From the sequence record NC_048203.1: a DNA stretch of 64,000 nt; one strand, 5' to 3'. Position 1 is the stretch's first letter. Every line of letters begins with the position of its first letter. This stretch comes from Escherichia phage vB_Eco_mar003J3. The notes beneath the pieces are model-generated. The model made no database searches and was not told where the DNA came from. It worked only from the letters and a program-made list of their open reading frames with translations. Both the position numbers and the translations under genes were made by a program. Positions 24,578 through 40,770 of this stretch are shown piece after piece.

Positions 24578-25894
24578 TTATTTCCCACGGGAAATTGAGT
24601 AAATTCCATAACGCAGTGCGTCACAAAGGTGAGAGTTCGCATCATGACGTGGTTTTTCACGTGATAATTTCTCTTCACCTTCCTGGAAGTCCCACTTGTA
24701 GTTCGCTAAGGCGTGGATCAATGAGGTACATGAAGCATCTACGATGATCTTACCTTGCTGGAACAGTGCTTGCAGGCATGCCAAACCATCTAGGACGGAT
24801 TTCTTAGCAGGAGCAGAAGCGATTTCATGTTCATAAGCTAAGTCCTGACGGAACTGAGCAGCGGCGGAGTCTACAAATATACGATCAACATTATAACGAT
24901 CTATGCAGTGCTGGATATAAGCAGCGTGTTGGGCTGTAGTCTTTTCAGCCTGCTGATACTCTTCTAGTATGTAATAAACATCAGTATCATAGTGATACTT
25001 GATAGTAAGAACTGCTGTAGGGTCACGATAACCAACGTCGATACCAAGTAATGTTTCGAAAGCCTCATCATCTTTAAAGAAGTGACGCATACCTTTGAGG
25101 TCTTTAACGTGCTCGATAGCATTGAAGGTATCAAAGATCTGACCTTCGAATACGGAGAAGTCAGCCTCATATTCTTGACGGAAATAGTTTTTACTAACAG
25201 TACGACGCGCTTCTTCGATATCGTTCAGGTCAGCACGTGGGTTATCACGATATGTACCATGAATAGATACCCAATTAGGTAGCGTTTCGTTAAATCCTTT
25301 CTCATAGAACTCTTTGAACCAGTTACCCCCACGAGGAGTAGAGATAAATAGAGCTTTAGAGTTTGGCTTATCTAGGGTAGGACGTAACTGAATATCGAAA
25401 GCTGCACCACCAACGTCGGAAATCGCTGCTTCGTCAAAAATGATGAAGTCATATGAACGACCAACCGCGGAGTCAGCCTGCGCCGCGGAAGCCAGTTTAA
25501 AGAGTGAACCATTCGCTAATTCAATCTCTTTATCTTTGGCGTTCTCACGTTCAGTCTGTAATCCATACTTTTTAATAAGACCACGAATCTGTGACCAACC
25601 AATGTTAGCCAGTGAGTAGTTAGGTGCAACTACTAGCACCTTCACATTGGGTTCCAGAAGTTTTAAGAACCCAAGTGTATATGCGATGAACGACTTACCT
25701 ACACGACGTGATACACATGCAGTTACGAAACGGTGTCTAGGATCTTCCAGCGCGTTAATAATTGCAACCTGAGGGGCGTTAGGCGTAATCCCCTCTTGAG
25801 CTAGAATGCTAGAGACTGGCAGACGGAAAAATCGTTTGTCAATACCAAAGTCAATAACATCTGTGGTGTTAATATAATCTCTAGAGACCTTCAT
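24578..25894 (-). CDS. terminase large subunit
   Basis: 438 aa (T5 large terminase 438 aa); Walker A-like VSRRVGKS; C-terminal acidic nuclease-like segment. Confidence 0.8.
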   Translation of the reverse strand: MKVSRDYINTTDVIDFGIDKRFFRLPVSSILAQEGITPNAPQVAIINALEDPRHRFVTACVSRRVGKSFIAYTLGFLKLLEPNVKVLVVAPNYSLANIGWSQIRGLIKKYGLQTERENAKDKEIELANGSLFKLASAAQADSAVGRSYDFIIFDEAAISDVGGAAFDIQLRPTLDKPNSKALFISTPRGGNWFKEFYEKGFNETLPNWVSIHGTYRDNPRADLNDIEEARRTVSKNYFRQEYEADFSVFEGQIFDTFNAIEHVKDLKGMRHFFKDDEAFETLLGIDVGYRDPTAVLTIKYHYDTDVYYILEEYQQAEKTTAQHAAYIQHCIDRYNVDRIFVDSAAAQFRQDLAYEHEIASAPAKKSVLDGLACLQALFQQGKIIVDASCTSLIHALANYKWDFQEGEEKLSREKPRHDANSHLCDALRYGIYSISRGK

Positions 25895-26376
25895 TATCTC
25901 TTACCTCCTCCTGCTAGAGCGGTAATAAGATTCATATAGTTTTCGTCACCACTTCCAGCAATAATATTATTCTGAATGTTAGTCTGGTTAGCCGGAGTAC
26001 GGGCTGCTGCCTTCACTTTCTCCAGTTCTACCATCATTTTCATTTCTTCCATCTTCATCTTATGCGCCTTCCAGAGAATATCCATGATATCCTGGTCAGA
26101 ACCCATGCCAGTTTCTTCGAGTTCTTCCAACTTGCGCTTGATAACTTCATCAAGAACTCCGAATAAGCGGTCACGATTACGGAAGCCACTTTCCATAAAG
26201 ATATCGTTGAGATAGTTTTTAACTTCCCCACGATTCATTATATCACGGAATACAATCTCGGACATTCCAAGACTACGAGCGGCGGCAGGAACATCACTAC
26301 CGCACTGTAAATAGGCTTCAATAACATCCATGCCCTCAGGAGACATGAGATCGGGAACTAATACATCATTTGCCAT
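25894..26376 (-). CDS. putative terminase small subunit / DNA-binding protein
   Basis: 160 aa immediately upstream of large terminase, start overlapping. Confidence 0.4.
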
Positions 26377-26386
26377 ATATCCTCCT

Positions 26387-28168
26387 TTAGGTTAGGCGTT
26401 GAACTGTTACACGTAGTCTTGGCAAGAAAACAGCCGCCGCTTCCGCAGCGTGAATGATAACACCCAATTCAACGTTGCCATTACCAAGGTTTTTAATAGT
26501 ATAAATATATCCGTTCCTACGGAAAGCAAACTCATCAGGCCTACTAGCCCAAGTTTGTGTATAACTATAGGAAGTTGTACTGTGATAAGGTACTAGATAT
26601 CCAGGTGGCAGAGTAAGAATCTGGTGGAATACACCATCACCAGCAGTATAACTTTGTTGCCGTCTACCTTGTACCTGCCAAGCACTACCTCCGTAAGTAC
26701 GCACAGGCATTCCAGCAGTATTAAGATTACCCATAATAACTTCGGTAGTTAATATAACAGTAGAGTGAGCATTCGGTAATCCCAACCAAACTGTGGCCAA
26801 AGGTGTGTAGAAGTCACCAGCACCAGGGTAGGATGGAGTTATATCGTCCCCTACATAAGTACTTGCAACGTTGCCTGGGAATAACCTGAGTGGTACAGTA
26901 CTAGGACTCCACACAGGTCCATGTTCATTACCAATGGAGTTGGTATTAGTATCTACATACCATTGTTTACCTACACCAAATTTATATAAGCTAATTTGAG
27001 AAGCTGCACCCCCATAGTTAACTGGTGACCACAACCCACCATTACTAGAGCCGATAAATTCACATCGTGCAGTATTATCACCAAAAACTCCGGTATACGC
27101 AGCGTTATTACCAACATACTCCATATCAGGGCGATAGCCTAAGTTTCCGAAAGCATTCTGGTTAATAAATTTATAGCCTGTATTTGGTAGGCTAACACCT
27201 TTAATAGTAAAGTTAGATGGAGATATTAAGATATCTGAACTGGTAAATGGATTACCAGAAACTCCCATACTACCATTAGAATAGCGCAGATTTAGTACAT
27301 ACCAAATAACCTTAGTTGGCGTAACGTTGTACCAGTCCTGTACATATACCTTTCTAGTGGCTTGTGCAGCCATATTAGTTGTAGAACCCCTACAAACGTA
27401 TACTTTAGTAGGAAAGGAGGGGGATTGGTAGTTAATGTTTACGTTATCTGGTAGTACGCCTTTTTTACCTGCGAAGCCACGAATATTAGAACTACAAACA
27501 TAAAACCAATCATGGCCTCTACCAGCAGAACCAATAGGCGCCTGCCAGTTAGGATCCCAATAATCTGCGTTACCACCATCTAAAGGAACAGTAGAGACAC
27601 CAGTTGGAAAACCCATAAGACTCCAGGCTCTGGCAATGGCTTCACCAGCAGAAACACCACCAGGTCTAAAGATCTGGAAACCAGAGGACTGTAGTAAACT
27701 GCCTCCAGAACCTTGCCTAGCAATAGATTCCTCATGACCAAGACCACCATTATAGATATAAGTACCATGAGCTAAACTATCACCGATCGCAAAAGCAGAT
27801 GTTACAGATAATTCAGCACCAGCACGTGGTGGGTCTTCAAAGAATGATAAGAACTGGCCAACCTGAGATTGAGTACCATTCAGAAATCCACGATGAGTAC
27901 CGTTTATCTCAATAGCAGTTAATATAACTCTACCCGGATCATTGGATTTAATATTTATAATATCCCAAGGCATCTGAGTAACAAAGTATCCATTACCTGC
28001 ATTACCTAGGGCTGCTTCATAAGTCCCATCAACCAGGACGAAAGGCATATCTGAGTGGAAGATACTATTAGTATTTGGAGAATAGTGCTCACCAGTATCA
28101 CCACCATTAGCAGCGTTTAGAGATAATACAGTTTTACCATCACTAAATTTTCCTGCGAAAAAACTCAT
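26387..28168 (-). CDS. receptor-binding tail protein (T5 pb5-like)
   Basis: 593 aa starting MSFFAGK; adjacent divergent lipoprotein gene as in T5 oad/llp. Confidence 0.55.
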
Positions 28169-28251
28169 ACAATCTCCTTCTTTAAAAATGTATTTGCTTA
28201 GGTCCCTCTATTTTGCTATAATATATTTATAAATTAAACAGAGGAACGATT

Positions 28252-28518
28252 ATGAAAAAGTTACTAGCTATCGTAGTTGCAGCAGTAGTGTTGACTGGTT
28301 GTGTACCAGCTCCCGAGCCGTTCTGTAAGGCATACGTGAAGTCTTATGGTCATGTTGGTGAAGAACACTATGCTTTAGATATTCGAGAAGCACGTACTGT
28401 GGGCTACCGATTCCCTAAAACTCAGTTACGCACTAAGTTTGGGTGGTGGGATCTGTCACAGTTTGATCTCAAATATGGCGATTGCAAATTTAAACTAGAA
28501 CAATCTGGTCACTTGTAA
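28252..28518 (+). CDS. llp: lipoprotein, superinfection-exclusion Llp-like
   Basis: 88 aa with signal peptide and lipobox LTGC; divergent from receptor-binding protein gene. Confidence 0.55.
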   Translation: MKKLLAIVVAAVVLTGCVPAPEPFCKAYVKSYGHVGEEHYALDIREARTVGYRFPKTQLRTKFGWWDLSQFDLKYGDCKFKLEQSGHL

Positions 28519-29288
28519 TTAGTATAAAGTAAAAAGATCTCGAAGTAAACAAAAATTTTTATTTCTGGGATGAGGTACAGGTAGCAAACACAATGCAAGA
28601 TGAAGAAAAGCCCTTTCAGGAACCTGTTAACTTTGAAATAGATCCCAGGACTAAAGCAATACATGATGCGATTAACGAAATCATTCAAGACGTCATAGAA
28701 GATACAATATAAGACGTGATGGGAACATCCTTCTTACTAGAAGAATCCGGCTTCGACGAAGTAATGGATCTAATCGGGACAGTCGTAATGGTTCGTGCAA
28801 TTGCTAGGGTATTCCAAATACCAAGACTATAGGAGAAGCAAAGAGATGTCAGACGACAACAGAAGAAAGAACAGACGCGGGGAAGTGTACGAAAGTTGGA
28901 TAAATAGTTTCGGATTCGGAACTGTATTATTCTTTATCTTTGTACTCTTTTGGTTAGCGGCTATGGCGGGGTGGTTATAATGGAAGTAATAATTATTGCT
29001 TTACTAGTTGTGGTAATTATCGGGCAGTGCATTTTAGATAACCACTTAACTCGTATCGAACGTAAGCTGCGGGGAGACAAGTAATGTTTAGTTTTGTAGC
29101 TATCTTCATTATTGGGGTACTTGCGGGAATCTTCGGAACACTCGGGGCGATTAATAAGCATCGTGAATATATTGTGGGAGTATCGCGGGAGCTTTCGGAA
29201 AGGGAGCGGAGGTTTGCAGAAAAACGGGAGGAGTTCGAGCGAGAGTGGAGTGCTGGCTCAAGAAGCTCTCGTAGGAGATTTAAGATAG

Positions 29289-29786
29289 ATGACAAATCAT
29301 AAGCCCTTACTTCCCTTAGAGGAATACCAGAGTAAGTTCGATTATGATCCAGAAACAGGTATATTTACTTGGAACTCGGGGAGTCGTAGAGGTAAACCAG
29401 CTGGCGGCCGTAATGACTCGGGCATTTCCCTTTCTATGGGCAGCAAAGGCAAGTATAAGGCCCACCGAGTGGCGTGGTTATACATGACAGGGGAAGATCC
29501 AGGAGATCTTCTAATAGATCATAAAGATCAAGACCCCTGGAACAATAAATGGAACAACTTACGAAAAGCTACGAATAAAGAAAATAGTAATAACTCTTCC
29601 GGATGGGAAAATAAATCCACAGGTGTAAAAGGGATATATAAGAGGACAGAAGGGAAGTTCGAGGCGAGAATACGTGCTAACGGGGAAAGAATCAACGTAG
29701 GTACATTTGGTAGCCTCGAGGAAGCTGAAAGTGCGATAAGGGAAGCACGTGAGAAAGTATGTGGTGAGTTCACAAACCACGGTTAA
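29289..29786 (+). CDS. HNH homing endonuclease with AP2-like DNA-binding domain
   Basis: IDHKDQDPWNNKWNNLRKATNKEN HNH motif; GVKGIYKR...FEARIRANGERINVGTFGSLEEAE AP2-like; opposite strand to neighbours. Confidence 0.7.
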   Translation: MTNHKPLLPLEEYQSKFDYDPETGIFTWNSGSRRGKPAGGRNDSGISLSMGSKGKYKAHRVAWLYMTGEDPGDLLIDHKDQDPWNNKWNNLRKATNKENSNNSSGWENKSTGVKGIYKRTEGKFEARIRANGERINVGTFGSLEEAESAIREAREKVCGEFTNHG

Positions 29787-29959
29787 TAGCGCTAATTTGA
29801 AAATCTTGAAATTTCATAAGATTACACATGCGGATGTGCTCAGTGGGACTGGAGATAGTTAGTAGTCTAATAATCCCCCTGTGTTACTATTACCATGCTA
29901 ACTGTTTCATCCTGTAACCATTTTTTAATTACAGGATGAAACTATTTTATTTTTAATTG

Positions 29960-30694
29960 TTAGGCAACTTTTAATTTATCAATGAATTGTTGCGGAGCGG
30001 TACTATAGTCTCCCCTTTCTTCCTCAGTCATACCCTGCCAGCACATTTCTAAGCGCTGGCAAAGATATTGATAATCATTATCATCATCTAACGATTCATC
30101 AATAAAGGTTTCACCGATCAATGCTACGCCGATTGATAGGATATCGTTAACGGCTTGGGCGTCCAGTGTTTTGAATCCAGCACTTGCCGCCACCGATAAT
30201 ACGCCTTTATGATCATCAATCATCGTAAAATCAGCGTTTGGATATAGCTGTTTAAATAGTTCAAAGTAATAGCTTTTGTATACAGCGTCTTTGCTGTGGT
30301 ATATTTCGCTAACCTTATCCGCTTCAAAGTATTTGTGTAATGTATCGCGGGAGAATACGCGGATATTGCTATTTCCGCGCCCTCGCAAGCCTTGTTTACG
30401 CAAATAAAAGTAATCGCTTTTAGACATAAGGCGCGCGGTACAAATAACATTTAAAGTATTTGCATCATTCATACATTGGCGCATATATTCAACCAACGGC
30501 AATAAAGAATCCTGCATAATTAAATCATGTTTACAGGCTTCGCGGGAATACTTATTTAAATTTAAATTCCCGTTATCATCAAAGCAAGGCGCTACACGAT
30601 GGAAAGAATTAATGATTGTGCCGTCCAGATCCCAAATCATGACGCGGGAAATATGCGGGAAATTATGGGTAATATTCGTTTTAACTTGATTCAT
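29960..30694 (-). CDS. dmp: HAD-family 5'-deoxynucleotidase (T5 Dmp-like)
   Basis: 244 aa; HAD motif I WDLDGT near N-terminus. Confidence 0.55.
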   Translation of the reverse strand: MNQVKTNITHNFPHISRVMIWDLDGTIINSFHRVAPCFDDNGNLNLNKYSREACKHDLIMQDSLLPLVEYMRQCMNDANTLNVICTARLMSKSDYFYLRKQGLRGRGNSNIRVFSRDTLHKYFEADKVSEIYHSKDAVYKSYYFELFKQLYPNADFTMIDDHKGVLSVAASAGFKTLDAQAVNDILSIGVALIGETFIDESLDDDNDYQYLCQRLEMCWQGMTEEERGDYSTAPQQFIDKLKVA

Positions 30695-30774
30695 TTGTTA
30701 CATTCTCCATTTAAGGGATCTAGGTTAATTCAGCATTACCCGCTATTTATAAGCGGGTAATAATAAATTAACTA

Positions 30775-31167
30775 TTAAAGACCATACGCCAACGCATCAG
30801 CGATAAAACTAATATCCTCACCTGATACACTGGAACGAATCCCCGCGCAAGTGTAGACCTTTGCAGACATAAGAGCATTATCAAGGCAAGCGGGGCATGG
30901 CGCGACAACTGCAAACGCTAGACCTGATTTTACAGCGTCAATAATAACAGTTTGCTCTTTTACGGTATCAATATAAACGCCTTTTGCTTTTGTATGGCTT
31001 GACGCTTTACCGGTAATGTATGCAAATGTTGTTACCTGTAGCGCCTCGTTAAAGTCTAGCAGTTCATCAATAATATGACCCGATTCAACGTGATAACGCT
31101 CGCCATTAGAATAAACTAGAACGATGGAAGAAGTAGCGTGATCAAAAGGAATGTTTTGGTTTTTCAT
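30775..31167 (-). CDS. A2: pre-early protein (T5 A2-like)
   Basis: 130 aa, immediately downstream of A1-like gene. Confidence 0.4.
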   Translation of the reverse strand: MKNQNIPFDHATSSIVLVYSNGERYHVESGHIIDELLDFNEALQVTTFAYITGKASSHTKAKGVYIDTVKEQTVIIDAVKSGLAFAVVAPCPACLDNALMSAKVYTCAGIRSSVSGEDISFIADALAYGL

Positions 31168-31242
31168 GTTTAAAACTCCAGATTATTTAATTAACTTTTT
31201 CGGGAATATAAGCGGGGAATATTCCCCGCTGATTAAATTTAA

Positions 31243-32907
31243 TTAGGCAAAGAATTTGCCATTTTTGAAATCAATCAAGGTACGTTGACCGTTTGCATAT
31301 GTAATTAAATGCGTTTGCGTCCAGCTTGACGCGCCAACGTTGTAACCCATATCGAGACTACCAGCAACGCCAGCGGTATAAACGCCGCCGTATATACTAG
31401 CCGTGTGAGTGTGGCCCGTGTTGAGGCGTCCTAACTTTTTAAACTGTTTAGGATTGCCCCGACTGCCGTTAATGCCGTTGTGACCATGTACACCGCATTC
31501 AATTCCTGCAATCTTGAAAGATTGGTCAGTAGTCAGGAAAATAGCGTTAAATTCGCAACCTGCAACGTTTCTAAGCGCATAATCCAATACGTTAAAGGTA
31601 TCATCTTGTTTTGCAATAGCCGCATAAATCGCAGCGTTTAGGCTGTGATACAGTTCGGCGTTTGCGGGGTCGTCTTTAATGTTAGCGTTACGATCATCAA
31701 GCCAACGGGATAACGCCAAATCATGATTGGATTCCACGATGATTGTTTGAGAAAAATCGCGCTCCATTGACTCCAACACGCGACCGGTATCAATGAGATC
31801 GTCAATAACTTTATCACGTCCGGCGGCGTATTGTTTCGCAAGGAATACACCACTTGCGCGGTTGTGATGGTTACGCGATGTAAAATCATGCACATCATGA
31901 ATAAACTGATATTTCGGTTTAAGAATATCAAGCAAGCTATTTTCGCCCACCCATGATGCAACGGCGCATTCATCATCTAATTTTTCGGCGTGAATATCGC
32001 CATATTGCAAGCCTAGAACATGATCGGACGTTTCAAAACATCCGGTAGGCATAGCGCAAATATTCAAATCATAAAACATTCCGCTTTCATCCATTGTTTC
32101 AAGCTGGCGAACAAAAAATTCGCCGTCGTCGTCAAATTCTACCAACAAAGCGCCGTAATTATGCAGCGCCTCAGCTTTTTGACCTGCTTTCTGCTGAATA
32201 TAGTTTTTAAGTGTAGCCGTTCCGGTGGAGTACATACGGCGCACTACTTCACCTTTTAACGCTGGCACACTTTCAGCGGTAATTTTAGCGTGACCAATTG
32301 CCAGACCTTCAATATTTAAAGCCGTGGCGGTTTCTGCGAATCCTGAAAGCGGATAGTCTGCCGTTGGTAACACGTTAATTTCAGCCATGAAAGCAAAACG
32401 GCGATTATTTAAAAATACGTTTTTCTCGCAAATATATTTATTAAATGCGGGATCGTATTTAATGCCTTCGTTACCTTCTCCATTCTGGAAGCCGTTTTTA
32501 TTGTAAATGAATTTACTAACCAGCAATTCACCGCCGATATATTCAGCGAATTGCTCAAGCACTTTCAAAAAGTTTTTATGTGGGAAAGTATTATTTTGAA
32601 TCGACGTTAGAATAAAACGGCGACCGGATTTAACTTCCCACTGTTCCACGGTACTAGAAACAATCCCCGCCGCTTCTGGGCGATCATCATTTTTAATCGC
32701 CTTTTCAGCTTTTGCCGCTTTCGGTTTCGCTGGCTTATTTGCTTCCAGCCAGTCACAAATTGCGGTCGAATGTTTCGGCGTGTCATAAACAGCTTTTGAA
32801 ATATCGTCACAAACTTCCAATTTAGTAGCGCGTAAACGCTTGCCATAGAAATTAAAATCAGCGGCAAGTTTAGTGATCTGGGACTGTTTTTCTGCGGAAA
32901 TATTCAT
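31243..32907 (-). CDS. A1: pre-early metallophosphatase-fold protein (T5 A1-like)
   Basis: 554 aa (T5 A1 about 556 aa); calcineurin-like motifs GDIHAE, GHNG, GHTHTAS. Confidence 0.6.
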   Translation of the reverse strand: MNISAEKQSQITKLAADFNFYGKRLRATKLEVCDDISKAVYDTPKHSTAICDWLEANKPAKPKAAKAEKAIKNDDRPEAAGIVSSTVEQWEVKSGRRFILTSIQNNTFPHKNFLKVLEQFAEYIGGELLVSKFIYNKNGFQNGEGNEGIKYDPAFNKYICEKNVFLNNRRFAFMAEINVLPTADYPLSGFAETATALNIEGLAIGHAKITAESVPALKGEVVRRMYSTGTATLKNYIQQKAGQKAEALHNYGALLVEFDDDGEFFVRQLETMDESGMFYDLNICAMPTGCFETSDHVLGLQYGDIHAEKLDDECAVASWVGENSLLDILKPKYQFIHDVHDFTSRNHHNRASGVFLAKQYAAGRDKVIDDLIDTGRVLESMERDFSQTIIVESNHDLALSRWLDDRNANIKDDPANAELYHSLNAAIYAAIAKQDDTFNVLDYALRNVAGCEFNAIFLTTDQSFKIAGIECGVHGHNGINGSRGNPKQFKKLGRLNTGHTHTASIYGGVYTAGVAGSLDMGYNVGASSWTQTHLITYANGQRTLIDFKNGKFFA

Positions 32908-33005
32908 ATATTAATTAACTCCATTAAAGGGATTTAAAACATTTTAAAGCTGGCAATATTGCCAAATATAACGCCGTTTATTTACAGCGTTATAATTTGC
33001 AACAT

Positions 33006-33221
33006 TTAACTAATCGGCATTAGGCTAGAACTTACACCAAGAGCAACGGCGGCAATAAAACAAATAAGACCTAAACTCTTTGCGAATTTAGATTTATGCT
33101 TAAAATAATATGAATCTAAATCATTTTGAAAATAAGCGAATAATAATGAGGCCGCCATAATAAACAAGCCTAGAATGAGGGATTCACTAGGAAAGAAGAT
33201 CATTTTAATAACTCCGGTCAA
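33006..33221 (-). CDS. small membrane protein (2 TM)
   Basis: 71 aa, two hydrophobic helices. Confidence 0.45.
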   Translation of the reverse strand: MTGVIKMIFFPSESLILGLFIMAASLLFAYFQNDLDSYYFKHKSKFAKSLGLICFIAAVALGVSSSLMPIS

Positions 33222-33260
33222 AGGGAAATTATAGCGGGGAATATTCCCCGCTGATTAAAT

Positions 33261-33695
33261 TTATTCGCCTGCGGCCTGTTTTACTTCATCGACAACGCCT
33301 AACAATTGCGCCATGGCTTCCAGCGTTTCCAGTTTTGCACTTTCCAAACTTGCCAGATCGTCGGCGTCTTTGATAATGCCTGAATCAATGGCGTGTTTAG
33401 CGATAACGCGCACATAGTGAGCTTTACGGATTGAGCTACCGCCGCCAACTTTGCGCGGCTTGTCGCTTTTCTGGTAGGCTTTTGCACTGGTCAATTTAGA
33501 ACGTACAGAGACAGGGGAAGCCGCGCCAACGGCGGCGGCGATTTCTTTTAAGCCGTCACTGTTAGCAAATTCAACGCCATTTTTTTCGATCATTTCAGAA
33601 TACAAAGAGACAGCTTTCTGCGTGTTTTCTTCATTCCAAGAGAATTTTGCGGCTTTTTCGGTTTTAACGTTAGACATAGTAAATACTCCGTTCAA
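33261..33695 (-). CDS. pre-early hypothetical protein
   Basis: 144 aa ORF in A1 operon direction. Confidence 0.5.
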   Translation of the reverse strand: MNGVFTMSNVKTEKAAKFSWNEENTQKAVSLYSEMIEKNGVEFANSDGLKEIAAAVGAASPVSVRSKLTSAKAYQKSDKPRKVGGGSSIRKAHYVRVIAKHAIDSGIIKDADDLASLESAKLETLEAMAQLLGVVDEVKQAAGE

Positions 33696-33776
33696 TTATT
33701 AATTAAGGGATTATGATTAACTAATGTTAATCGTTATATTGCCCATATTTCAGGGCAATATAAAAGTAACACTAAT

Positions 33777-34028
33777 TTATGCTATGGCTTGCCATTTATC
33801 ATCTTTCTGAATGACCTTTACAACGTCGCCAGATTTAACACGGACGGTATAAATCGGCTTGCCGTGGTTACTGCGTTCCGTTTCCGCGTAGACCGCTTCA
33901 ATCTTATCAAAGGGATCAAGCGCCGCACCTTTAATACGTTCGGCTTTTCCGGTTAATTCATCCGTTTTAGTTACAAAAGGAATGAATACAGATTGACCTA
34001 CTTTCGGCGCGGTAATAACGTTTTGCAT
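33777..34028 (-). CDS. pre-early hypothetical protein
   Basis: 83 aa ORF. Confidence 0.45.
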   Translation of the reverse strand: MQNVITAPKVGQSVFIPFVTKTDELTGKAERIKGAALDPFDKIEAVYAETERSNHGKPIYTVRVKSGDVVKVIQKDDKWQAIA

Positions 34029-34192
34029 TTTTAATACTCCGGTTTATTGGGGATTATTCCACAATAGCGCCTCGATACTTTGAAACGCTATTAGATTATA
34101 ATCCGCTAGGAGTTAGCCTAAACATTACCGTTATCCAAATTGTTAAAGAGCAGTTACTACGGGGAACATCTTAAAACCTATCGGCTAGCGTG

Positions 34193-34402
34193 TCAAGCGT
34201 TTTTTAAACTTTTTTCGATTTGATGGGAGTTATATAAATCAATCATTATATTACGCCACACCATTTCCAGCCCTTGTTGCTTGCCTTTCTTGTATTGCTT
34301 GAATCTGTATTTTACAGATCGTTGCGCTACTGTCAACAAATTTTTTGTTCTGCTATCAAGCGACTTGATAGGCTTGCCAGTGATCAAAAGCGTTTGTTTC
34401 AT
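34193..34402 (-). CDS. pre-early small basic protein
   Basis: 69 aa, Lys/Arg-rich; first gene after the 1.1-kb regulatory region. Confidence 0.45.
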   Translation of the reverse strand: MKQTLLITGKPIKSLDSRTKNLLTVAQRSVKYRFKQYKKGKQQGLEMVWRNIMIDLYNSHQIEKSLKNA

Positions 34403-34808
34403 ATCGTCGATTCCTTATAATATCTAAGTTTACCGCCGATAGGCTTTAAGATGTTCCCTAATTTTTAAAGAGCATGGCAGGGTTTTGAAAGGTCAAACAG
34501 ACTGTCAATCGCTGTTATCCCCGCCGTGTAGTTCGTCATTGCCGCCCTACGTGATAAATAATAGGAGAATACCGAGAAGGGCGCAAGCGTATTTTTGTAA
34601 AGAAACGTAAAGAAAACCACTACTCGCAAACGTCCAGCGGCGCATTAAATTTAATGAAACGGGCGCGCGAATAACACCAAAACAACCATTTTAGCAAGTA
34701 ATTTTTTCATTTATATCTGCTCTAGGGTACTTGACAAAATCTAAAATCCTCGTGGTGAGGTTTTCTCGGTGTACCCCTTATGATTGCCTATCTTTTCCTT
34801 TGAGGCGC

Positions 34809-34835
34809 TTAGAATGCGTTACAGAGCGTTTTAGA
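34809..34835. repeat. 27-bp element TTAGAATGCGTTACAGAGCGTTTTAGA, copy 1
   Basis: identical to 38232..38258. Confidence 0.9.
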
Positions 34836-35165
34836 CCCTGTTAATAACTTATACAAAAAGCAAAAATGAAATTTAATGAGTTATCCACTTGATTTTTCAA
34901 AAAAGTATTTTCTGCTGTTATTTTTCATTGACAAATAAGTCTGGACGTGTATCAGATCGTTAGCAGACTAATAATCGCTAGGATGATAATCACGCTGGTG
35001 GATTGTAACGGCTGAAATCATTAGCAGACTATTAATCAAGGAAAATCCTATTAGCCAACTAACTATTTCATAATATATAATATACATATAAATTAATGAG
35101 AAATAATAAATATGAGAAACTATCGGGCTAAGTGAGAACCACTATCATTTAACTTATACCCAAAG

Positions 35166-35174
35166 TTATCCACA
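35166..35174 (+). promoter_or_regulatory. DnaA box TTATCCACA
   Basis: perfect 9-mer consensus. Confidence 0.6.
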
Positions 35175-35214
35175 GCACAAAATAACTTGACGCAATAGGC
35201 GACGTTTTGGCGAC

Positions 35215-35223
35215 TTATCCACA
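35215..35223 (+). promoter_or_regulatory. DnaA box TTATCCACA
   Basis: perfect 9-mer consensus, 49 bp from first box. Confidence 0.6.
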
Positions 35224-35243
35224 GACTTATATACAGGTTATCC

Positions 35244-35263
35244 TACTGTATAAATATACAGGG
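35244..35263. promoter_or_regulatory. LexA (SOS) box-like palindrome followed by TAGAAT -10-like hexamer
   Basis: TACTGTATAAATATACAGGG: CTGT-N8-ACAG core, 18/20 to TACTGTATATATATACAGTA. Confidence 0.5.
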
Positions 35264-35510
35264 TAGAATGGTAGCAGTAACAACCGCAATCAAATTTAAG
35301 CGGCCTAGAACGCGCTACACGGCGTTTTCTCACTGCTGCCCTTATTATAATAAAGCCTTGTGTACACTTACAGAGTGCTAGAAATAGAAAACGCGCGGAT
35401 ATCATAAAAACAGGCAGTAAGCAAGGAATAAAAAACCTTTTCTTTTTCCTTGCCCCTAGCGAACAAATATCTATATCATTCACTCACCGATTAACGAGGG
35501 AGACAAAGAA

Positions 35511-36536
35511 ATGTCTACTGTAAGAATTGCAGTACCAGCAAACGCCACTATTATTAAGGGTAGTTTGCGCAACCTGCTAGACGGATCAAGTCTAGCAAGC
35601 CTACAGCTAGACGGATCAAGTCTAGCAAGCCTACAACATACGGCGGCAATGGTTGAAAAGATTCACGATGAAATTTTAGATAATAATGATACTCATTATT
35701 GTTTAAGTGATTTCACACAATTACTAGACCCTACCCGCGTTCTAGTGCTTTACAACCGTGACTATCACATCATGCGAAATCAGCGGGGAAGAGATATTGA
35801 TTTTATCATTGTAGGTCACGACGAAAAAAGCTATATTGCCCGTGGTTACAATGTACAAGAAAAAGAAATGGTTTTCGCTACTCGCGTAAATGGTATTAAT
35901 TCCAGCGATGTAGAAGATTTACTATCTAGTATTTGTGGCGAATTGACAAGCGCCATTAAACGTGCTGATAGTTACGCAATCGAAACAACTGGCGTATTGT
36001 GTTTTGGACGCGCTAGAGGTAACATGTTGATCCCTAACGATTATTTAGAGTATGGGAATGAATCAAACGTTGCAAACGCTGGATTTACACTTTTACCGCT
36101 TGACAATGTAACAAAACAGGCTGTACAATCTCAAACTTCAAGCGCAAATGCGCAAACTACTGAAAATAAAGGAAATATTATGTCTAAAGTATCTTCTATC
36201 GTTGCTGCTAATAAATCCGCCGTTGTAAACGCTGCTAAACTGGAAGTGGGTAAAATTGCACTGACTCAAGTCACAAAAGTAGCGGCGAAAAAAGCACCGT
36301 TTATGATTAAAGGGTATATTGATACGCCGATTGGTCGTGTAGTGATCGCTAACCTGCTGAGTGTAGCGGTTGACCAGTACGCCCCGACTAATGCGAAAGC
36401 TAAAGCGGTAGCAGGCGCGGCAATGGAAGCGGCAATGTTGGAAATGGTACAAAGTTTCAATATTGCTGAAATGATCGATGAAATGGTAAAAGGTATTGAC
36501 ATTTCAACCTTTACCCAAAATGCTGAAAGCGAGTAA
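35511..36536 (+). CDS. hypothetical protein with internal tandem duplication and Ala/Val-rich C-terminal region
   Basis: 341 aa; RBS GAGGGAG; rho-independent terminator downstream. Confidence 0.6.
   Translation: MSTVRIAVPANATIIKGSLRNLLDGSSLASLQLDGSSLASLQHTAAMVEKIHDEILDNNDTHYCLSDFTQLLDPTRVLVLYNRDYHIMRNQRGRDIDFIIVGHDEKSYIARGYNVQEKEMVFATRVNGINSSDVEDLLSSICGELTSAIKRADSYAIETTGVLCFGRARGNMLIPNDYLEYGNESNVANAGFTLLPLDNVTKQAVQSQTSSANAQTTENKGNIMSKVSSIVAANKSAVVNAAKLEVGKIALTQVTKVAAKKAPFMIKGYIDTPIGRVVIANLLSVAVDQYAPTNAKAKAVAGAAMEAAMLEMVQSFNIAEMIDEMVKGIDISTFTQNAESE
35577..35636 (+). repeat. tandem 30-bp duplication (29/30 identical) inside CDS
   Basis: ctagacggatcaagtctagcaagcctaca[g/a] twice; encodes LDGSSLASLQ x2. 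Confidence 0.9.
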
Positions 36537-36564
36537 TAATTAGTCTAATGTAAAGTTTTGTAAA

Positions 36565-36590
36565 GGTCGCCCTAATCGGCGGCCTTTTTT
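36565..36590 (+). terminator. rho-independent terminator
   Basis: ggtcgcc-ctaatc-ggcggcc followed by TTTTTT. Confidence 0.65.
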
Positions 36591-36654
36591 GTTATAATGC
36601 CTTTACACCGAAACGGTGGATTGAAAATTTTCCCCGATTTCTAGGAGGCGTTAA

Positions 36655-36882
36655 ATGGTACATTCATCATCTTCTGCAATTTTTAATGGTATGGAATGGG
36701 TATCCGTTCCCACTATTGTAAGCGTTATGGTTTCGGAGTTTGGGATTGGTAAAACTTATGTTACCATTCAGGAGCTTTACGACAATGACAAGATTGATCA
36801 GCAAACAGCCGGATTTTTGCTGGATGAATTGAAAGCTAACCACTGCACCAAAAAGCAAGCGGCAAAAATTGTTTTAATGTAA
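36655..36882 (+). CDS. hypothetical small protein
   Basis: 75 aa; strong RBS CTAGGAGG 7 nt upstream. Confidence 0.55.
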   Translation: MVHSSSSAIFNGMEWVSVPTIVSVMVSEFGIGKTYVTIQELYDNDKIDQQTAGFLLDELKANHCTKKQAAKIVLM

Positions 36883-36930
36883 TTAATAACGGGGCGTTAC
36901 TTTCGCCCCTAATTTCTAGGAGCTAATAAA

Positions 36931-37080
36931 ATGGTTATTTTTCGATCAGTTCTAGCAGGTATCTTGGGCGCTATTTTATCGTTGTTTGCAATAGCTTTCG
37001 GTGTTCATGCCGTTATTATCGGCGCGGGTATCGCGGGGTTTTCTTACCTGTTAGGCTGTATGACTGGTAAAGGGGGATAA
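36931..37080 (+). CDS. 49-aa hydrophobic glycine-zipper membrane peptide (not in ORF track)
   Basis: ATG at 36931 preceded by TCTAGGAGC; MVIFRSVLAGILGAILSLFAIAFGVHAVIIGAGIAGFSYLLGCMTGKGG; stop 37078..37080. Confidence 0.5.
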   Translation: MVIFRSVLAGILGAILSLFAIAFGVHAVIIGAGIAGFSYLLGCMTGKGG

Positions 37081-37082
37081 AA

Positions 37083-37295
37083 ATGTTAAAAAATGTAAGC
37101 CTTGCCCGTTCTAAAGGTTTTAAGCTGGTGGATGTTAACACGTTCGAGCGTCCAGATTGTAAAATCGAATATGTAGCACGCAACAAAAACGCGTTTCGTG
37201 TTACAGAAAAGAAATTTGACAAGCGCGGCAATTTGGTAGCCGAAACGGTTAAACACTTTGCCACCTTTTACGCTGCGTTTCGGGGAGTGTTATAA
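37083..37295 (+). CDS. hypothetical small protein
   Basis: 70 aa, starts 2 nt after the membrane peptide stop. Confidence 0.5.
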   Translation: MLKNVSLARSKGFKLVDVNTFERPDCKIEYVARNKNAFRVTEKKFDKRGNLVAETVKHFATFYAAFRGVL

Positions 37296-37296
37296 A

Positions 37297-37641
37297 ATGG
37301 TAATTTACGAGGGCAACCGATTTGTAACTAATTGCCGTCCGGCATTATTAGCAAACTATTTAAATCAGCTTTCACCAGTTTATAAAGGCGTGGTTAATAT
37401 CTATGAGGGCAAAGCACATTATAAAATTTCTGCCGTTGTCGCCCGTGAACTAGCGTTTCAATTTTTAACTTTTGGGTCTTGTGACGTTCAGGTTATGGGG
37501 GAAGCGTTAATAGCGGAAAATGAAAATGAATTTATTGACATTTTCCGCAAAGTATGTACAGAGCGCCTGATTATGAAAGGCGCGTATATTCAATCAACCG
37601 CTGAAAGTATCGAAACAGCGTTTCGAAAGGTGGCGCAATGA
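37297..37641 (+). CDS. hypothetical protein (likely start at internal ATG 37297 rather than 37258)
   Basis: RBS GGGGAG upstream of 37297; stop of upstream gene at 37293..37295. Confidence 0.5.
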   Translation: MVIYEGNRFVTNCRPALLANYLNQLSPVYKGVVNIYEGKAHYKISAVVARELAFQFLTFGSCDVQVMGEALIAENENEFIDIFRKVCTERLIMKGAYIQSTAESIETAFRKVAQ

Positions 37642-37823
37642 CTAGAAATGAAGCTGTTAAAGCTATGTTAGAAGGTAAAAAAGTAACTCATCGTTATTTT
37701 TCCATGCATGAATATTTATTCATGAAATATGAAGTGATCACCACGGAGGATGGTTATAAATTTAATCATGAATTTTATAGCCGTGAAATGTTTAATGATG
37801 GCTGGCAGCTTTATTATGAATAG
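37638..37823 (+). CDS. hypothetical small protein
   Basis: 61 aa; ATGA start/stop overlap with upstream gene. Confidence 0.5.
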   Translation: MTRNEAVKAMLEGKKVTHRYFSMHEYLFMKYEVITTEDGYKFNHEFYSREMFNDGWQLYYE

Positions 37824-37949
37824 CTGGTGGCGAAAAACACAAAGCCATAAATCTAATAATACCGCTGGGAAACATTCCCAGCGTTTACGATTTGGTAATG
37901 GCTTCACAATGATATTGATAATCATTCTCATTCTAGGAGCAATGGCGTT

Positions 37950-38144
37950 ATGAGTGATAAAATTGTTGTAACTAAAACTACTGTTACCGTTGATACTTTC
38001 TTTGTGCCTGATACGCTGGAAAATCGGCAAGCGGTGGAGCGTGGCGATTATGATAAAGTGATTTATGATAACGATGGTTACTATCAACATTTGGTAGACT
38101 CCTACGGCGAAAGCGAAAAGATCACACATCGACTACCAGACTAA
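37950..38144 (+). CDS. hypothetical small protein
   Basis: 64 aa; RBS TAGGAGC upstream; terminator downstream. Confidence 0.5.
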   Translation: MSDKIVVTKTTVTVDTFFVPDTLENRQAVERGDYDKVIYDNDGYYQHLVDSYGESEKITHRLPD

Positions 38145-38150
38145 TAATAA

Positions 38151-38180
38151 CGGGGCGCAACTATCGGCCCCGTCTTTTCT
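38151..38180 (+). terminator. rho-independent terminator ending the plus-strand cassette
   Basis: cggggc-gcaactatcg-gccccg then TCTTTTCT. Confidence 0.65.
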
Positions 38181-38231
38181 GGCCTTCCTCAAATTTCCCC
38201 TTATTAAAATACCTCCGCCAAAAATAAACGC

Positions 38232-38258
38232 GTTAGAATGCGTTACAGAGCGTTTTAG
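38232..38258. repeat. 27-bp element TTAGAATGCGTTACAGAGCGTTTTAGA, copy 2
   Basis: identical to 34809..34835. Confidence 0.9.
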
Positions 38259-38289
38259 AGCTATATTAGAGTTATTCACTACGCAGGAA

Positions 38290-38309
38290 TACTGTATAAA
38301 TATACAGTA
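38290..38309. promoter_or_regulatory. LexA (SOS) box-like palindrome followed by TAGAAT
   Basis: TACTGTATAAATATACAGTA: 19/20 to E. coli LexA consensus. Confidence 0.5.
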
Positions 38310-38390
38310 GAATAACCTGTTGATAAGTCTGTTGATAACGCCCCAAAATCGCTAGGATTTTGTCAAGTCAAATCGTGCTGTTAATAAACC

Positions 38391-38399
38391 TGTGGATAA
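38391..38399 (-). promoter_or_regulatory. DnaA box TTATCCACA (reverse orientation)
   Basis: plus strand tgtggataa. Confidence 0.55.
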
Positions 38400-38430
38400 C
38401 TTAAATAACAGTGTTTCTCACTTCGCTTTG

Positions 38431-38575
38431 TAAATGCGAGTCATTCTCATTATCATTAGCGTTTCCCTTCCTAAATGCAAATCATTCTCATTCGTATTCC
38501 GGTAGTCAAATGATAACTGTTCTCATTCGCATTCAACTTCTCAAATGCGAATCATTCTCATTATCATTCGCATTT
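38431..38575. repeat. three copies of AAATGC(G/A)A(G/A)TCATTCTCATT motif; third copy is a hairpin AAATGCGAAT...ATTCGCATTT
   Basis: copies at 38431..38459, 38471..38498, 38541..38575. Confidence 0.8.
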
Positions 38576-38606
38576 CGGCAGGCAGGGCAATTTGCCCTGC
38601 GCTTTT

Positions 38607-39207
38607 GTGCAAATCCGACATTTGCCCCCACGGATTACGTGCCAGTGTGCATGTGCGAATCCGACAATTTTTGGTAGTGTGCAAATCCGATGGGAAATAT
38701 TTTTTATATGTGCGAATCCGACAATGAATTTTCCTAAAAACTCCAGCAATCCGCAACTGCGATGCAATCCAGCTGGATTTACTAGAATATGTGCAAAACC
38801 GACAAGTGTTAAGGTGTGCGAATCCGACAAGATTTTTGTGACTTCGATTGGAGGGTGTGTGATTGTGTGGGTTTGGGGAGAAGTGCGAATCCGATGAGAT
38901 TTTGGGAGGAACTACGGAAGGAGCAGCGGTGATGGTGCTTTAGCACCGATTTGCTGCATTTTTGGGGATAATGCGGGATGTTTTGGCTAGAATTGAGATT
39001 AGTGGAGATAAAGCGAAATTTTATTAGCAAAATGGGGCAAAATCGCTTGACAAGTGAAAATTCCTGTGGCTCTAAAAACTCAGGCAATCATGGGCCTTCG
39101 GCCCGAAATAATGCTGCTATTTTCAGTGTTCCTAAAAACTTTGGAGACTCCTATCAATGTGCAAATCCGACCATAAATTTCTAGAAACATAATGTGCAAA
39201 TCCGATA
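38607..39207. repeat. array of 9 direct copies of 14-bp motif GTGCRAATCCGAYN with irregular spacing (injection-stop-like region)
   Basis: copies at 38607, 38653, 38679, 38710, 38791 (variant), 38816, 38883, 39159, 39194; no ORF with RBS; also CCTAAAAACT x3 and AACCGCCCT x3 nearby (39071..39300). Confidence 0.8.
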
Positions 39208-39739
39208 GCAATTTCCAGAAATGTGTTTTGGAAAAATGTCTCCTAGAAATAACCGCCCTCCCTATAACCGCCCTGTATAGGAAACCGCCCTAGGATATGT
39301 AACGTTGGAGAGAAACTGCCCTAGAATGCGTGAGAAACAGATTTAAAGTTTAGTGTAAACTCTAGAGTTAATGCTCAACTATTCCTAGAAACTTAGGAGT
39401 CTACTAGAAAGTGTTGTGCCATCCTAGCAGATGAGCGGCAACCGGTGTATCATCTTGAACACAAATATTGCCTTTAAATATTATAAGGTAAATAAAAGTT
39501 AATATACCCCCATTTCATGAGAGTTAGCCCCTCTAGGCGCGTGCGATTTGATACATCCTCCTGAGTCTCGGGGAGGAAGAACAATTGACGAGAACCTGCA
39601 AGCAGAACCGTCATCAAGTATTTTCCTACGAGGAATGATGTAAATCTACGGCCTAGAGGTAAAAACAAGTTGATGTTTTTAATCTATGAGATTATTATAA
39701 CATGCAGCTCAAATAATGTCAAGAAGATTTTGCTAACGT

Positions 39740-40465
39740 TTATAGATCGTGATTGACTTTGAGTATGACTCCCTTCGATGCCATGAAAAGGAATGTTGCT
39801 AGGTAAGATGACTCGGAATTTAGCGCAGAATAATCTACACTTCCTCTAGGTCTAGTTTCTTGTTTAGTGTCAAGAATTGTTTCGATATCAAACTTAACAG
39901 ATCTTGCAACTTTTCTAGCTTGTTCAGGATCACGTAAGATTTCAAAGTGAGCAGCATCTAGAATATGGTTAGATGATGTTGATTCGTCAACTATACTTAG
40001 ATGAACCTGCGCAAGTGTAGATACGATTCCTAGCTTTAATTCAGATAGAGAAGAATATGGTGGTTCTACTTTCTTTGTAAGTCTAGGGAGATGATCGTAT
40101 TTACATTGCTTTTGAGGAATCATCAGAATATTAGGATAACATTCTAAACATGACTTTGCATTTCCTTCTTTAAAATGCGGGAGTTCTTTATCTGCAAAGA
40201 CGTGGAATGAATCTGCTGAAAATCCTTTAATAGTAGGATCAACAGTTTGAATCAGACGACGTAAACTAATATATGAAGGAGCTAATGTGACTTCTTCTGC
40301 ATCTTTATTATATTTAGGTTGCCCACTAGCATTAATATATGCTGGATAAAACTCTGCACAAAATGCTACTGCATGAGCTTCTAACTCATTAAGTTCGGAA
40401 ACATTCTTTCCATTACAAGCTCTAGCTAACTTAATAATCTCTGCTAAATTCTTTTTTATACTCAT
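39740..40465 (-). CDS. early hypothetical protein
   Basis: 241 aa; first minus-strand gene after repeat array. Confidence 0.5.
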   Translation of the reverse strand: MSIKKNLAEIIKLARACNGKNVSELNELEAHAVAFCAEFYPAYINASGQPKYNKDAEEVTLAPSYISLRRLIQTVDPTIKGFSADSFHVFADKELPHFKEGNAKSCLECYPNILMIPQKQCKYDHLPRLTKKVEPPYSSLSELKLGIVSTLAQVHLSIVDESTSSNHILDAAHFEILRDPEQARKVARSVKFDIETILDTKQETRPRGSVDYSALNSESSYLATFLFMASKGVILKVNHDL

Positions 40466-40770
40466 ATATAATCATCCGGTTTTGTTTTAGTTTTTGTTAC
40501 TGATTTCACTGAAGGATCTAACTTAATCCACGTAAACCCTAGCTGCTCAGATAAGTGAGATATATTTCTAGGTGTTATTTTTATATTTGGAGGTAACTTA
40601 AATACTAGGTCTTTAAGTAACTTCATATCATCTGAACCAATGAAGAGAATATACTGCATATCTTCTTTTTGTTCATATTCGTTTTCAGATAATGTACTAA
40701 CTCCGACTGTATGTTTATTGAGTGTGGCCACCTTACAGCGGCCTACAGTAAACTGAGTAATTATATCCAT
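40462..40770 (-). CDS. early hypothetical protein
   Basis: 102 aa, 4-nt overlap with neighbour. Confidence 0.5.
   Translation of the reverse strand: MDIITQFTVGRCKVATLNKHTVGVSTLSENEYEQKEDMQYILFIGSDDMKLLKDLVFKLPPNIKITPRNISHLSEQLGFTWIKLDPSVKSVTKTKTKPDDYI

What the first reader, a model, noticed from the sequence alone, without database searches (positions are those of the whole stretch)
28519..39450. Gene order suggests a collapsed terminal redundancy of about 10-11 kb
Late genes (receptor-binding protein and Llp-like lipoprotein) are followed directly by pre-early-type genes (dmp-like, A2-like, A1-like) and then the repeat array and early genes. In T5 the late region abuts the right terminal repeat and the pre-early genes lie in the left terminal repeat. 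A single copy joining both is what a short-read assembly of a terminally redundant linear genome produces.
Basis: inference. Interest (0 to 1): 0.4.

Follow-up and report, generated by a model that had tools for sequence, protein, structure and literature searches.

The report
Collapsed T5-type terminal repeat, single copy
This is the well-known long terminal repeat of a T5-like phage, written once in the middle of the assembly instead of twice at the genome ends; it is ordinary, and it is about 9.2 kb rather than the 10-11 kb first suggested.

Summary
The window is a T5-like phage (Demerecviridae, closest to Epseptimavirus; 90-94% identical to many Salmonella/E. coli phages), in the same orientation as T5.

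The gene order is real: terminase, receptor-binding protein and llp; then dmp, A1 and A2; then a non-coding repeat zone; then early genes and tRNAs. This late | repeat | early continuity cannot occur in a linear record with a repeat at each end. It is what a single-copy (collapsed, permuted) representation gives.

The proposed limits are wrong.
- The left physical ends of T5, BF23, EscoHU1, BD13, Seafire, Shivani and EH1 map to window 29834-29839 (mode 29838).
- The right ends of T5, BF23, EscoHU1, Shivani and BD13 all map to exactly 39072.
- The inferred repeat is therefore 29838-39072, 9,235 bp.

The 1.3 kb after llp is unique-region DNA: homologues of T5.159, T5.160 and T5.162 plus an HNH homing endonuclease. 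The "A2-like" ORF is T5.002-like; the real A2 is at 33261-33695.

About 86% of related deposited records are collapsed in the same way. Read depth and physical ends could not be tested. This is already known and of low interest.

The parts
24578..26376 (-). Terminase large subunit (24578-25894) and small subunit (25894-26376), T5 type. This is the enzyme expected to make the genome ends.
   Evidence: Pfam Terminase_6N/6C. 84% nucleotide identity to T5.155/T5.156. PF26823 T5_Terminase_small on the identical Logan contig.
26387..28168 (-). Receptor-binding tail protein (pb5/oad homologue), the last large late gene.
   Evidence: PHROG 4815, E 1.2e-280. PF26860 Phage_T5_RBP5.
28252..28518 (+). Llp/Cor-type receptor-blocking lipoprotein.
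   Evidence: PHROG 1119, E 1.2e-23. Same position as T5.158.
28795..29302 (+). Small ORFs homologous to T5.159, T5.160 and T5.162. This is unique-region DNA to the right of llp and is not part of the repeat.
   Evidence: blastn of T5 110776-111034 and 111245-111409 onto window 28796-29060 and 29084-29248. In T5 these genes lie before the right repeat, which starts at 111532.
29289..29786 (+). HNH (AP2-domain) homing endonuclease. It is inserted relative to T5 and ends 51 bp before the left boundary of the repeat. It lies in the unique region.
   Evidence: PHROG 99, E 4e-56. PF13392 HNH_3. Absent from T5, Seafire and TrudiRoth. Present at the same site in Shivani and SB9 (annotated HNH) and in bobsandoy, and as an unannotated ORF in Kenya-K20.
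29838..39072 (.). Inferred direct terminal repeat (first-step-transfer DNA), present once here; 9,235 bp. In the virion it should be present at both genome ends.
   Evidence: Left ends of T5, BF23, EscoHU1, BD13, Seafire, Shivani and EH1 map to 29834-29839. Right ends of T5, BF23, EscoHU1, Shivani and BD13 map to exactly 39072. Copy number in deposited relatives drops at 39072.
29960..30694 (-). dmp, deoxynucleoside-5'-monophosphatase. It is the first gene inside the repeat; its stop codon is 122 bp from the inferred left end (T5: 123 bp).
   Evidence: Collinear with T5.001. PF26880 Phage_T5_dNMPase.
30775..31167 (-). T5.002 homologue of unknown function.
   Evidence: PHROG 4576, unknown function, E 3e-78. 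Collinear with T5.002.
31243..32907 (-). A1 (DNA transfer protein).
   Evidence: PHROG 1745, E 1e-242. Collinear with T5.004.
33261..33695 (-). A2 (DNA-binding protein needed for second-step transfer). The real start is probably the ATG at 33677.
   Evidence: PHROG 1725, E 7e-50. Collinear with T5.006 'A2' and with TrudiRoth bas30_0194 'A2 protein'.
35511..38144 (+). Rightward pre-early operon: a T5.011-like protein (35511-36536), the Ung-dependent abasic-site nickase (37083-37295), and other small ORFs.
   Evidence: PHROG 4263 and PHROG 4227. Collinear with T5 7079-8644.
38582..38603 (.). GC-rich hairpin followed by GCGC. This is the homologue of the T5 'major DNA single-chain interruption' (nick in the - strand between 38602 and 38603).
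   Evidence: T5 9748/9749 maps to 38602/38603 and the local sequence is nearly identical. The hairpin was found by the terminator scan. Seafire's PhageTerm repeat end maps to 38601.
38606..39207 (+). Six copies lie inside the repeat and two lie beyond its right end.
   Evidence: 10 matches in the window against 0.04 expected, 8 of them here. Repeat families D1/D3. T5 iss annotated at 9140-10149, homologous to 38168-39459.
39008..39127 (.). Island of about 120 nt, 96-99% conserved across seven genomes of two genera, that spans the inferred right end (39072|39073). It is a candidate end-forming signal.
   Evidence: Sliding conservation profile. Boundary sequences are nearly identical in T5, EscoHU1, BF23 and the window.
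39740..40465 (-). First early-region gene beyond the repeat (unique left part of the genome).
   Evidence: PHROG 8993. Same position as Seafire_021 and saus132 gp012, both outside the annotated repeats.

Best explanation
The window comes from a T5-like phage whose virion DNA is linear with a long direct terminal repeat. Here that repeat is written once, at window 29838-39072 (9,235 bp), between the right unique end (terminase, pb5, llp, small ORFs, HNH) and the left unique end (early genes, tRNAs).

This is the form a de novo assembly gives when the two identical copies collapse and the contig is closed and rotated. It is also the sequence of the junction in replicative concatemers.

Shown here:
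- the gene identities and the collinearity with T5;
- the coincidence of both boundaries with the mapped ends of relatives;
- a single copy within the window.

Inferred from established T5 biology:
- The terminase cuts at or near ...GGATGT|GCTCAG (left) and ...GTGGCTC|TAAAAACTC (right), and each packaged genome gets both copies.
- The repeat enters the cell first and expresses dmp, A1 and A2 before the rest of the DNA follows.
- The repeat and nick zone near its right end stops the first transfer step.
For: 1. The region is 90-94% identical to many Epseptimavirus/Tequintavirus records. It is collinear with T5 110.8-121.75 kb followed by T5 10.2-12.8 kb.
2. Left genome ends map to: T5 29837; BF23, EscoHU1, BD13 and Seafire 29838; Shivani 29839; EH1 29834.
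3. The right ends of T5, BF23 (PhageTerm), EscoHU1, Shivani and BD13 all map to exactly 39072.
4. The right end sits in a 120-nt island that is 96-99% conserved.
5. The 200 bp inside the end has 502 places in 441 records. The 200 bp outside has 451 places in 441 records. Duplication in the deposited two-copy genomes therefore stops at this point.
6. There is no long direct repeat in the window, so there is only one copy here.
7. The pre-early genes dmp, A1 and A2, the iss-type repeats and the nick site are all present.
8. A T5-type terminase and a T5-type nicking endonuclease are encoded next door.
9. [quoted passage not shown]
Against: - There are no reads, so 2x depth and physical ends are untested for this phage.
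- Three deposited relatives place their boundaries elsewhere: Seafire right end 38601; Kenya-K20 29870 and about 38651; saus132 29952 and 38863. Either the ends vary or those annotations are imprecise.
- Only 64 kb of the source is visible. The rest of the record could hold another copy, for example in a concatemeric long-read assembly.
Confidence: 0.88

Rival explanations
1. The repeat has the extent the first reader gave (28519-39450, 10-11 kb). It would start right after llp and run to the end of the non-coding repeat zone.
For: It brackets the right genes, and the T5 repeat is 10.2 kb.
Against: 28796-29248 is homologous to T5.159, T5.160 and T5.162, which lie outside the T5 repeat. No relative's genome end maps to 28519 or 39450. 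Seven left ends and five right ends map to 29834-29839 and 39072. The window lacks T5.003 and hegG, which explains the shorter repeat.
Confidence: 0.02
2. The repeat ends at the conserved nick site (29838 to about 38602, about 8.77 kb), as annotated by PhageTerm for Seafire. In this lineage the right physical end would lie at the GCGC nick sequence.
For: Seafire's PhageTerm repeat end maps to 38601, 1-2 nt from the homologue of the T5 major nick. Kenya-K20's annotated end (about 38651) is also nearby.
Against: Five other genomes, including the Epseptimaviruses EscoHU1 and BD13 and the PhageTerm-analysed BF23, end at exactly 39072. Virion DNA breaks at nicks, and each genome carries two copies of this nick, which could create a stronger read-start peak than the true end (inference). 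Seafire was sequenced at only 27.8x.
Confidence: 0.07
3. There is no terminal repeat. The phage would package a circularly permuted or otherwise different genome, and the gene order would simply be the circular map.
For: The sequence alone cannot show duplication. Most relatives are deposited as single-copy records.
Against: Every studied member of the family found here (T5, BF23, Seafire, EscoHU1, Shivani) has long terminal repeats at homologous positions. The terminase, both boundary sequences, the pre-early module and the injection-stop zone are conserved.
Confidence: 0.02

Closest known systems
Escherichia phage T5 terminal repeats (NC_005859: 1-10219 and 111532-121750; first-step-transfer DNA)
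   Same: Same gene order and strands: dmp, T5.002, A1, T5.005, A2, T5.007-009, then the rightward T5.011-015 operon, then the iss zone with the major nick. The distance from dmp to the left end is 122 bp here against 123 bp in T5. The right-end sequence is nearly identical over about 90 nt. The same unique flanks are present (llp, T5.159, T5.160 and T5.162 on one side, early genes on the other).
   Different: About 80% nucleotide identity. The repeat is 9,235 bp against 10,219 bp because T5.003 and the HNH gene hegG are absent and T5.016-017 are replaced. An extra HNH gene sits just outside the left boundary. The repeat is written once here and twice in the T5 record.
Salmonella phage Seafire (MK050846.2), an Epseptimavirus deposited with one copy of a PhageTerm-predicted repeat
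   Same: The same single-copy representation of the repeat. The same left end (window 29838). The region is 88-93% identical.
   Different: The Seafire record starts at the repeat, whereas here the repeat is internal. Its annotated right end (mapping to window 38601) falls on the nick site, 471 bp before the 39072 end shared by five other genomes.
Escherichia phage EscoHU1 (NC_133119) and Salmonella phage BD13 (OL451946), Epseptimaviruses deposited with both repeat copies
   Same: Their record ends map to exactly window 29838 and 39072. The 45 nt before the right end are identical between EscoHU1 and the window.
   Different: They are two-copy linear records of 121.8-123.1 kb. The EscoHU1 repeat is 9,914 bp.

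Membership tests
T5-type genome with long direct terminal repeats (Demerecviridae, Markadamsvirinae) | The same roughly 9-10 kb sequence is physically present at both ends of virion DNA. | not testable with these tools
   This needs reads, long reads or restriction mapping. Only a single copy is visible in the window.
T5-type genome with long direct terminal repeats (Demerecviridae, Markadamsvirinae) | The repeat carries the pre-early (first-step-transfer) genes dmp, A1 and A2. | tested here: met
   dmp 29960-30694, A1 31243-32907 and A2 33261-33695, shown by PHROG hits and by collinearity with T5.
T5-type genome with long direct terminal repeats (Demerecviridae, Markadamsvirinae) | The boundaries are homologous to the mapped genome ends of relatives. 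| tested here: met
   Seven left ends map to 29834-29839. Five right ends map to 39072.
T5-type genome with long direct terminal repeats (Demerecviridae, Markadamsvirinae) | An injection-stop-signal zone with repeats and the major minus-strand nick lies near the right end of the repeat. | tested here: met
   Met by homology only. T5 iss 9140-10149 corresponds to window 38168-39459. The nick maps to 38602/38603. There are eight copies of the 15-nt motif. Actual nicking and the stop function were not tested.
T5-type genome with long direct terminal repeats (Demerecviridae, Markadamsvirinae) | T5-type terminase and virion module, and a large tRNA cluster in the early region. | tested here: met
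   Terminase. Portal, capsid and tail genes on the identical contig. 20 tRNA genes.
Collapsed-repeat (single-copy, permuted) assembly | Right unique end, repeat and left unique end are contiguous in one sequence, with no second copy. | tested here: met
   Collinearity with the T5 right end, then the repeat, then the left unique region. No long direct repeat in 64 kb. The rest of the source record is not visible.
Collapsed-repeat (single-copy, permuted) assembly | About 2x read depth over the repeat, with read-start pile-ups at its two boundaries. | not testable with these tools
   No reads are available. Runs ERR2849792 and ERR10359905 contain this phage at 100% identity and could be used.

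The most novel reading that the evidence does not exclude
The conserved blocks at the two boundaries may be the still uncharacterised signals that the T5-type terminase uses to form the genome ends. These blocks are the roughly 50 nt before 29838 and the roughly 120-nt island spanning 39072. The nearby nick site (38602/38603) may act as an alternative, or artefactual, 'end' in some lineages such as Seafire. That would mean some deposited repeat lengths in this family are wrong by about 470 bp.
Probability: 0.3. Interest if true: 0.3.

Novelty: already known. Interest (0 to 1): 0.08.

Why it matters
The value is mainly practical. It tells an annotator that this contig is not a circular genome. 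The true virion DNA should be about 9.2 kb longer than the assembly, the record should start at window 29838, and the genes in 29838-39072 are present twice per virion. It also corrects the repeat limits and one gene name. Finally, it flags that read-start methods can mistake the conserved nick at 38602/38603 for the right end. It adds nothing new to T5 biology.

Tried and rejected
1. I suspected that BF23's PhageTerm repeat length (9,743 bp) also reflected the nick site, because the T5 nick is at 9748. Mapping showed that BF23's repeat end falls at exactly 39072, the consensus end, so the idea was rejected.

2. Both Logan contigs that carry this phage stop at window 31240. I checked whether this marked an end. 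It is a 31-nt exact repeat (31211-31241 and 33233-33263, a hairpin after A1 and after A2) that breaks a k=31 assembly graph. It is not a terminus.

3. The local Pfam copy gave no hits for dmp, A1, A2, llp, the small terminase subunit or the nickase. The newer T5-specific families appear only in the precomputed table. PHROGs was used instead.

4. The Rfam scan of 28000-40500 found nothing.

5. I looked for a motif shared by the left and right cut sites. There is only a weak TGTG(G)CTC resemblance, which I judged to be chance.

6. The promoter and terminator scans over the region were not enriched for promoters (40 found against 34.7 expected). They were used only descriptively.
Full report
**What the window is.** The 12 kb around the finding matches 551 phage records. 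The best are 90-94% identical Salmonella and E. coli phages of the Demerecviridae, mostly Epseptimavirus. The window carries 20 tRNA genes on the minus strand at 57-63 kb. It is collinear with phage T5 and in the same orientation.

**Checking the observation.**
- PHROG searches and collinearity with the annotated T5 record confirm these genes:
  - terminase large subunit 24578-25894 and small subunit 25894-26376;
  - receptor-binding protein pb5, 26387-28168;
  - Llp/Cor lipoprotein, 28252-28518;
  - dmp, 29960-30694;
  - A1, 31243-32907;
  - A2, 33261-33695;
  - a rightward pre-early operon, 35511-38144.
- A non-coding repeat zone follows at about 38170-39460, then early genes from 39740.
- The order late | pre-early | repeats | early is therefore real.
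- Two details are wrong:
  - The 1.3 kb after llp is not pre-early DNA. It holds homologues of T5.159, T5.160 and T5.162, which in T5 lie outside the repeat, and an HNH homing endonuclease at 29289-29786 that T5 lacks.
A2 lies on the far side of A1, as in T5 and TrudiRoth.

**Mapping the repeat boundaries.** I mapped the annotated or deposited genome ends of relatives onto the window.

| End | Genomes | Window position |
|---|---|---|
| Left | T5 | 29837 |
| Left | BF23, EscoHU1, BD13, Seafire | 29838 |
| Left | Shivani | 29839 |
| Left | EH1 | 29834 |
| Right | T5, BF23, EscoHU1, Shivani, BD13 | 39072 (all exact) |

- The left junction reads ...ATTACACATGCGGATGT|GCTCAGTGGG.
- The right junction reads ...TTCCTGTGGCTC|TAAAAACTCAGG.
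- The BF23 and Seafire ends were determined with PhageTerm.
- The right end lies in an island of about 120 nt that is 96-99% conserved among seven genomes, although T5 and BF23 are only 76-80% identical over the region.
- The 200 bp just inside 39072 occurs at 502 places in 441 records. The 200 bp just outside occurs at 451 places in 441 records. Duplication in the two-copy records therefore stops here. Only about 14% of deposited relatives carry both copies.
- The inferred repeat is 29838-39072, 9,235 bp. It is about 1 kb shorter than the T5 repeat because T5.003 and hegG are missing and T5.016-017 are replaced.

**Outliers among relatives.**
- Seafire's right end maps to 38601.
- Kenya-K20's ends map to 29870 and about 38651.
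- saus132's ends map to 29952 and 38863.
- The Seafire position is 1-2 nt from the homologue of the T5 'major DNA single-chain interruption' (T5 9748/9749, window 38602/38603). That site follows a GC-rich hairpin and has the sequence GCGC.
- Virion DNA of these phages breaks at nicks, and this nick is present twice per genome. I therefore think the Seafire boundary is a nick-derived read-start peak rather than a true end. This is an inference from one case.
- I tested the same idea on BF23, and it failed.

**Interpretation.**
- A linear record with a repeat at each end cannot show late genes, the repeat and early genes in one continuous stretch.
- The window has no second copy.
- The sequence is therefore a single-copy, permuted representation. 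This is what assemblers produce for terminally redundant genomes, and it is also what concatemer junctions look like.
- The Seafire announcement describes exactly this outcome.
- Every relative examined here whose ends were mapped or annotated has the repeat at homologous positions. The terminase, both boundary sequences, the pre-early module, the injection-stop zone and the nick site are conserved.
- I am about 88% confident that this phage's virion DNA carries 29838-39072 at both ends.
- Read depth and physical ends, the only direct evidence, could not be examined.

**How it works (from established T5 biology, not tested here).**
- The repeat is the first-step-transfer DNA. It enters first and expresses dmp, A1, A2 and the other pre-early genes.
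- Transfer then pauses near the repeat and nick zone, and resumes in an A1/A2-dependent way (summarised).
- During packaging the terminase must generate ends at the two boundaries so that each genome receives both copies. The signals are not characterised. The conserved blocks at 29838 and 39072 are candidates.

**Other checks.**
- Two public runs (ERR2849792 and ERR10359905) contain contigs 100% identical to the window over 14.9 kb and 7.1 kb. Both contigs cross the left boundary without interruption and stop at 31240. That position is a 31-nt exact repeat, not a terminus.
- Rfam found nothing in the region.

**Verdict.** This is an ordinary, already known property of T5-like phage assemblies. 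The coordinates need correcting to 29838-39072 (9.2 kb), and A2 needs reassigning. Interest is low.

Noticed in passing
window 38582-38603: The T5 'major single-chain interruption' (nick) maps to 38602/38603. It sits just after a GC-rich hairpin, at a conserved GCGC. Seafire's PhageTerm-predicted repeat end maps to 38601, so that annotation probably marks the nick and not the genome end. The same idea tested on BF23 was wrong.
   Followed up: partly
window 29289-29786 (+): A 165-aa HNH/AP2 homing endonuclease is inserted 51 bp outside the left repeat boundary. It overlaps the end of the T5.162-like ORF. An HNH gene or ORF sits at the same site in Shivani, Kenya-K20, SB9 and bobsandoy. It is absent from T5, Seafire and TrudiRoth.
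   Followed up: partly
window 38606-39207 (+): There are eight same-strand copies of TGTGCRAAWCCGAYA (0.04 expected in the whole window). They start 3 nt after the nick site and straddle the repeat end, with six copies inside and two outside. Two weaker copies lie at 41024 and 41261. Function unknown; this is part of the T5 injection-stop-signal zone.
   Followed up: partly
window 35127-35261 and 38292-38426: A 135-nt inverted repeat (75% complementary) brackets the rightward pre-early operon inside the terminal repeat. The same pair is present in T5 (6098-6237 and 9411-9542).
   Followed up: partly
window 31211-31241 and 33233-33263: A 31-nt exact repeat contains the palindromic hairpin AGCGGGGAATATTCCCCGCT. 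It lies just after the A1 stop and just after the A2 stop, so these are probably twin terminators. Both public Logan contigs of this phage break exactly here.
   Followed up: yes
window 39694-39722 (-): A perfect sigma-70 consensus promoter (TTGACA, 17 nt, TG, TATAAT; 12/12) lies just downstream of the first early gene. It points leftward, toward the right end of the terminal repeat.
   Followed up: no
window 39072-39089, 38734-38751 and 39132-39140: The sequence that begins at the inferred right end (CTAAAAACTCAGGCAATC) recurs 338 bp upstream inside the repeat at 89% identity. Its core, CTAAAAACT, recurs 60 bp downstream. Significance unknown.
   Followed up: no
window 24026-24550 (-): An ORF between the large terminase and the portal carries the T5 nicking-endonuclease family (PF26848) in the precomputed table for the identical contig. 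This fits the conserved nick site. The local Pfam copy did not contain that family.
   Followed up: partly
window 45668, 55335, 57687, 60811, 61911: Five copies of a 75-nt AT-rich element (61-76% identical to the reference copy) are scattered through the early and tRNA region. They look like repeated promoter or intergenic modules.
   Followed up: no
window 1983-2072, 3860-3949, 3950-4039: 90-nt direct repeats (63-83% identity), two of them tandem, lie in the late region near the start of the window, presumably inside a structural gene.
   Followed up: no
L018 (ERR2849792_802) and L019 (ERR10359905_403): The same phage, 100% identical over 14.9 kb and 7.1 kb, is present in two independent public sequencing runs. 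These could supply the reads needed for the depth and terminus test.
   Followed up: partly
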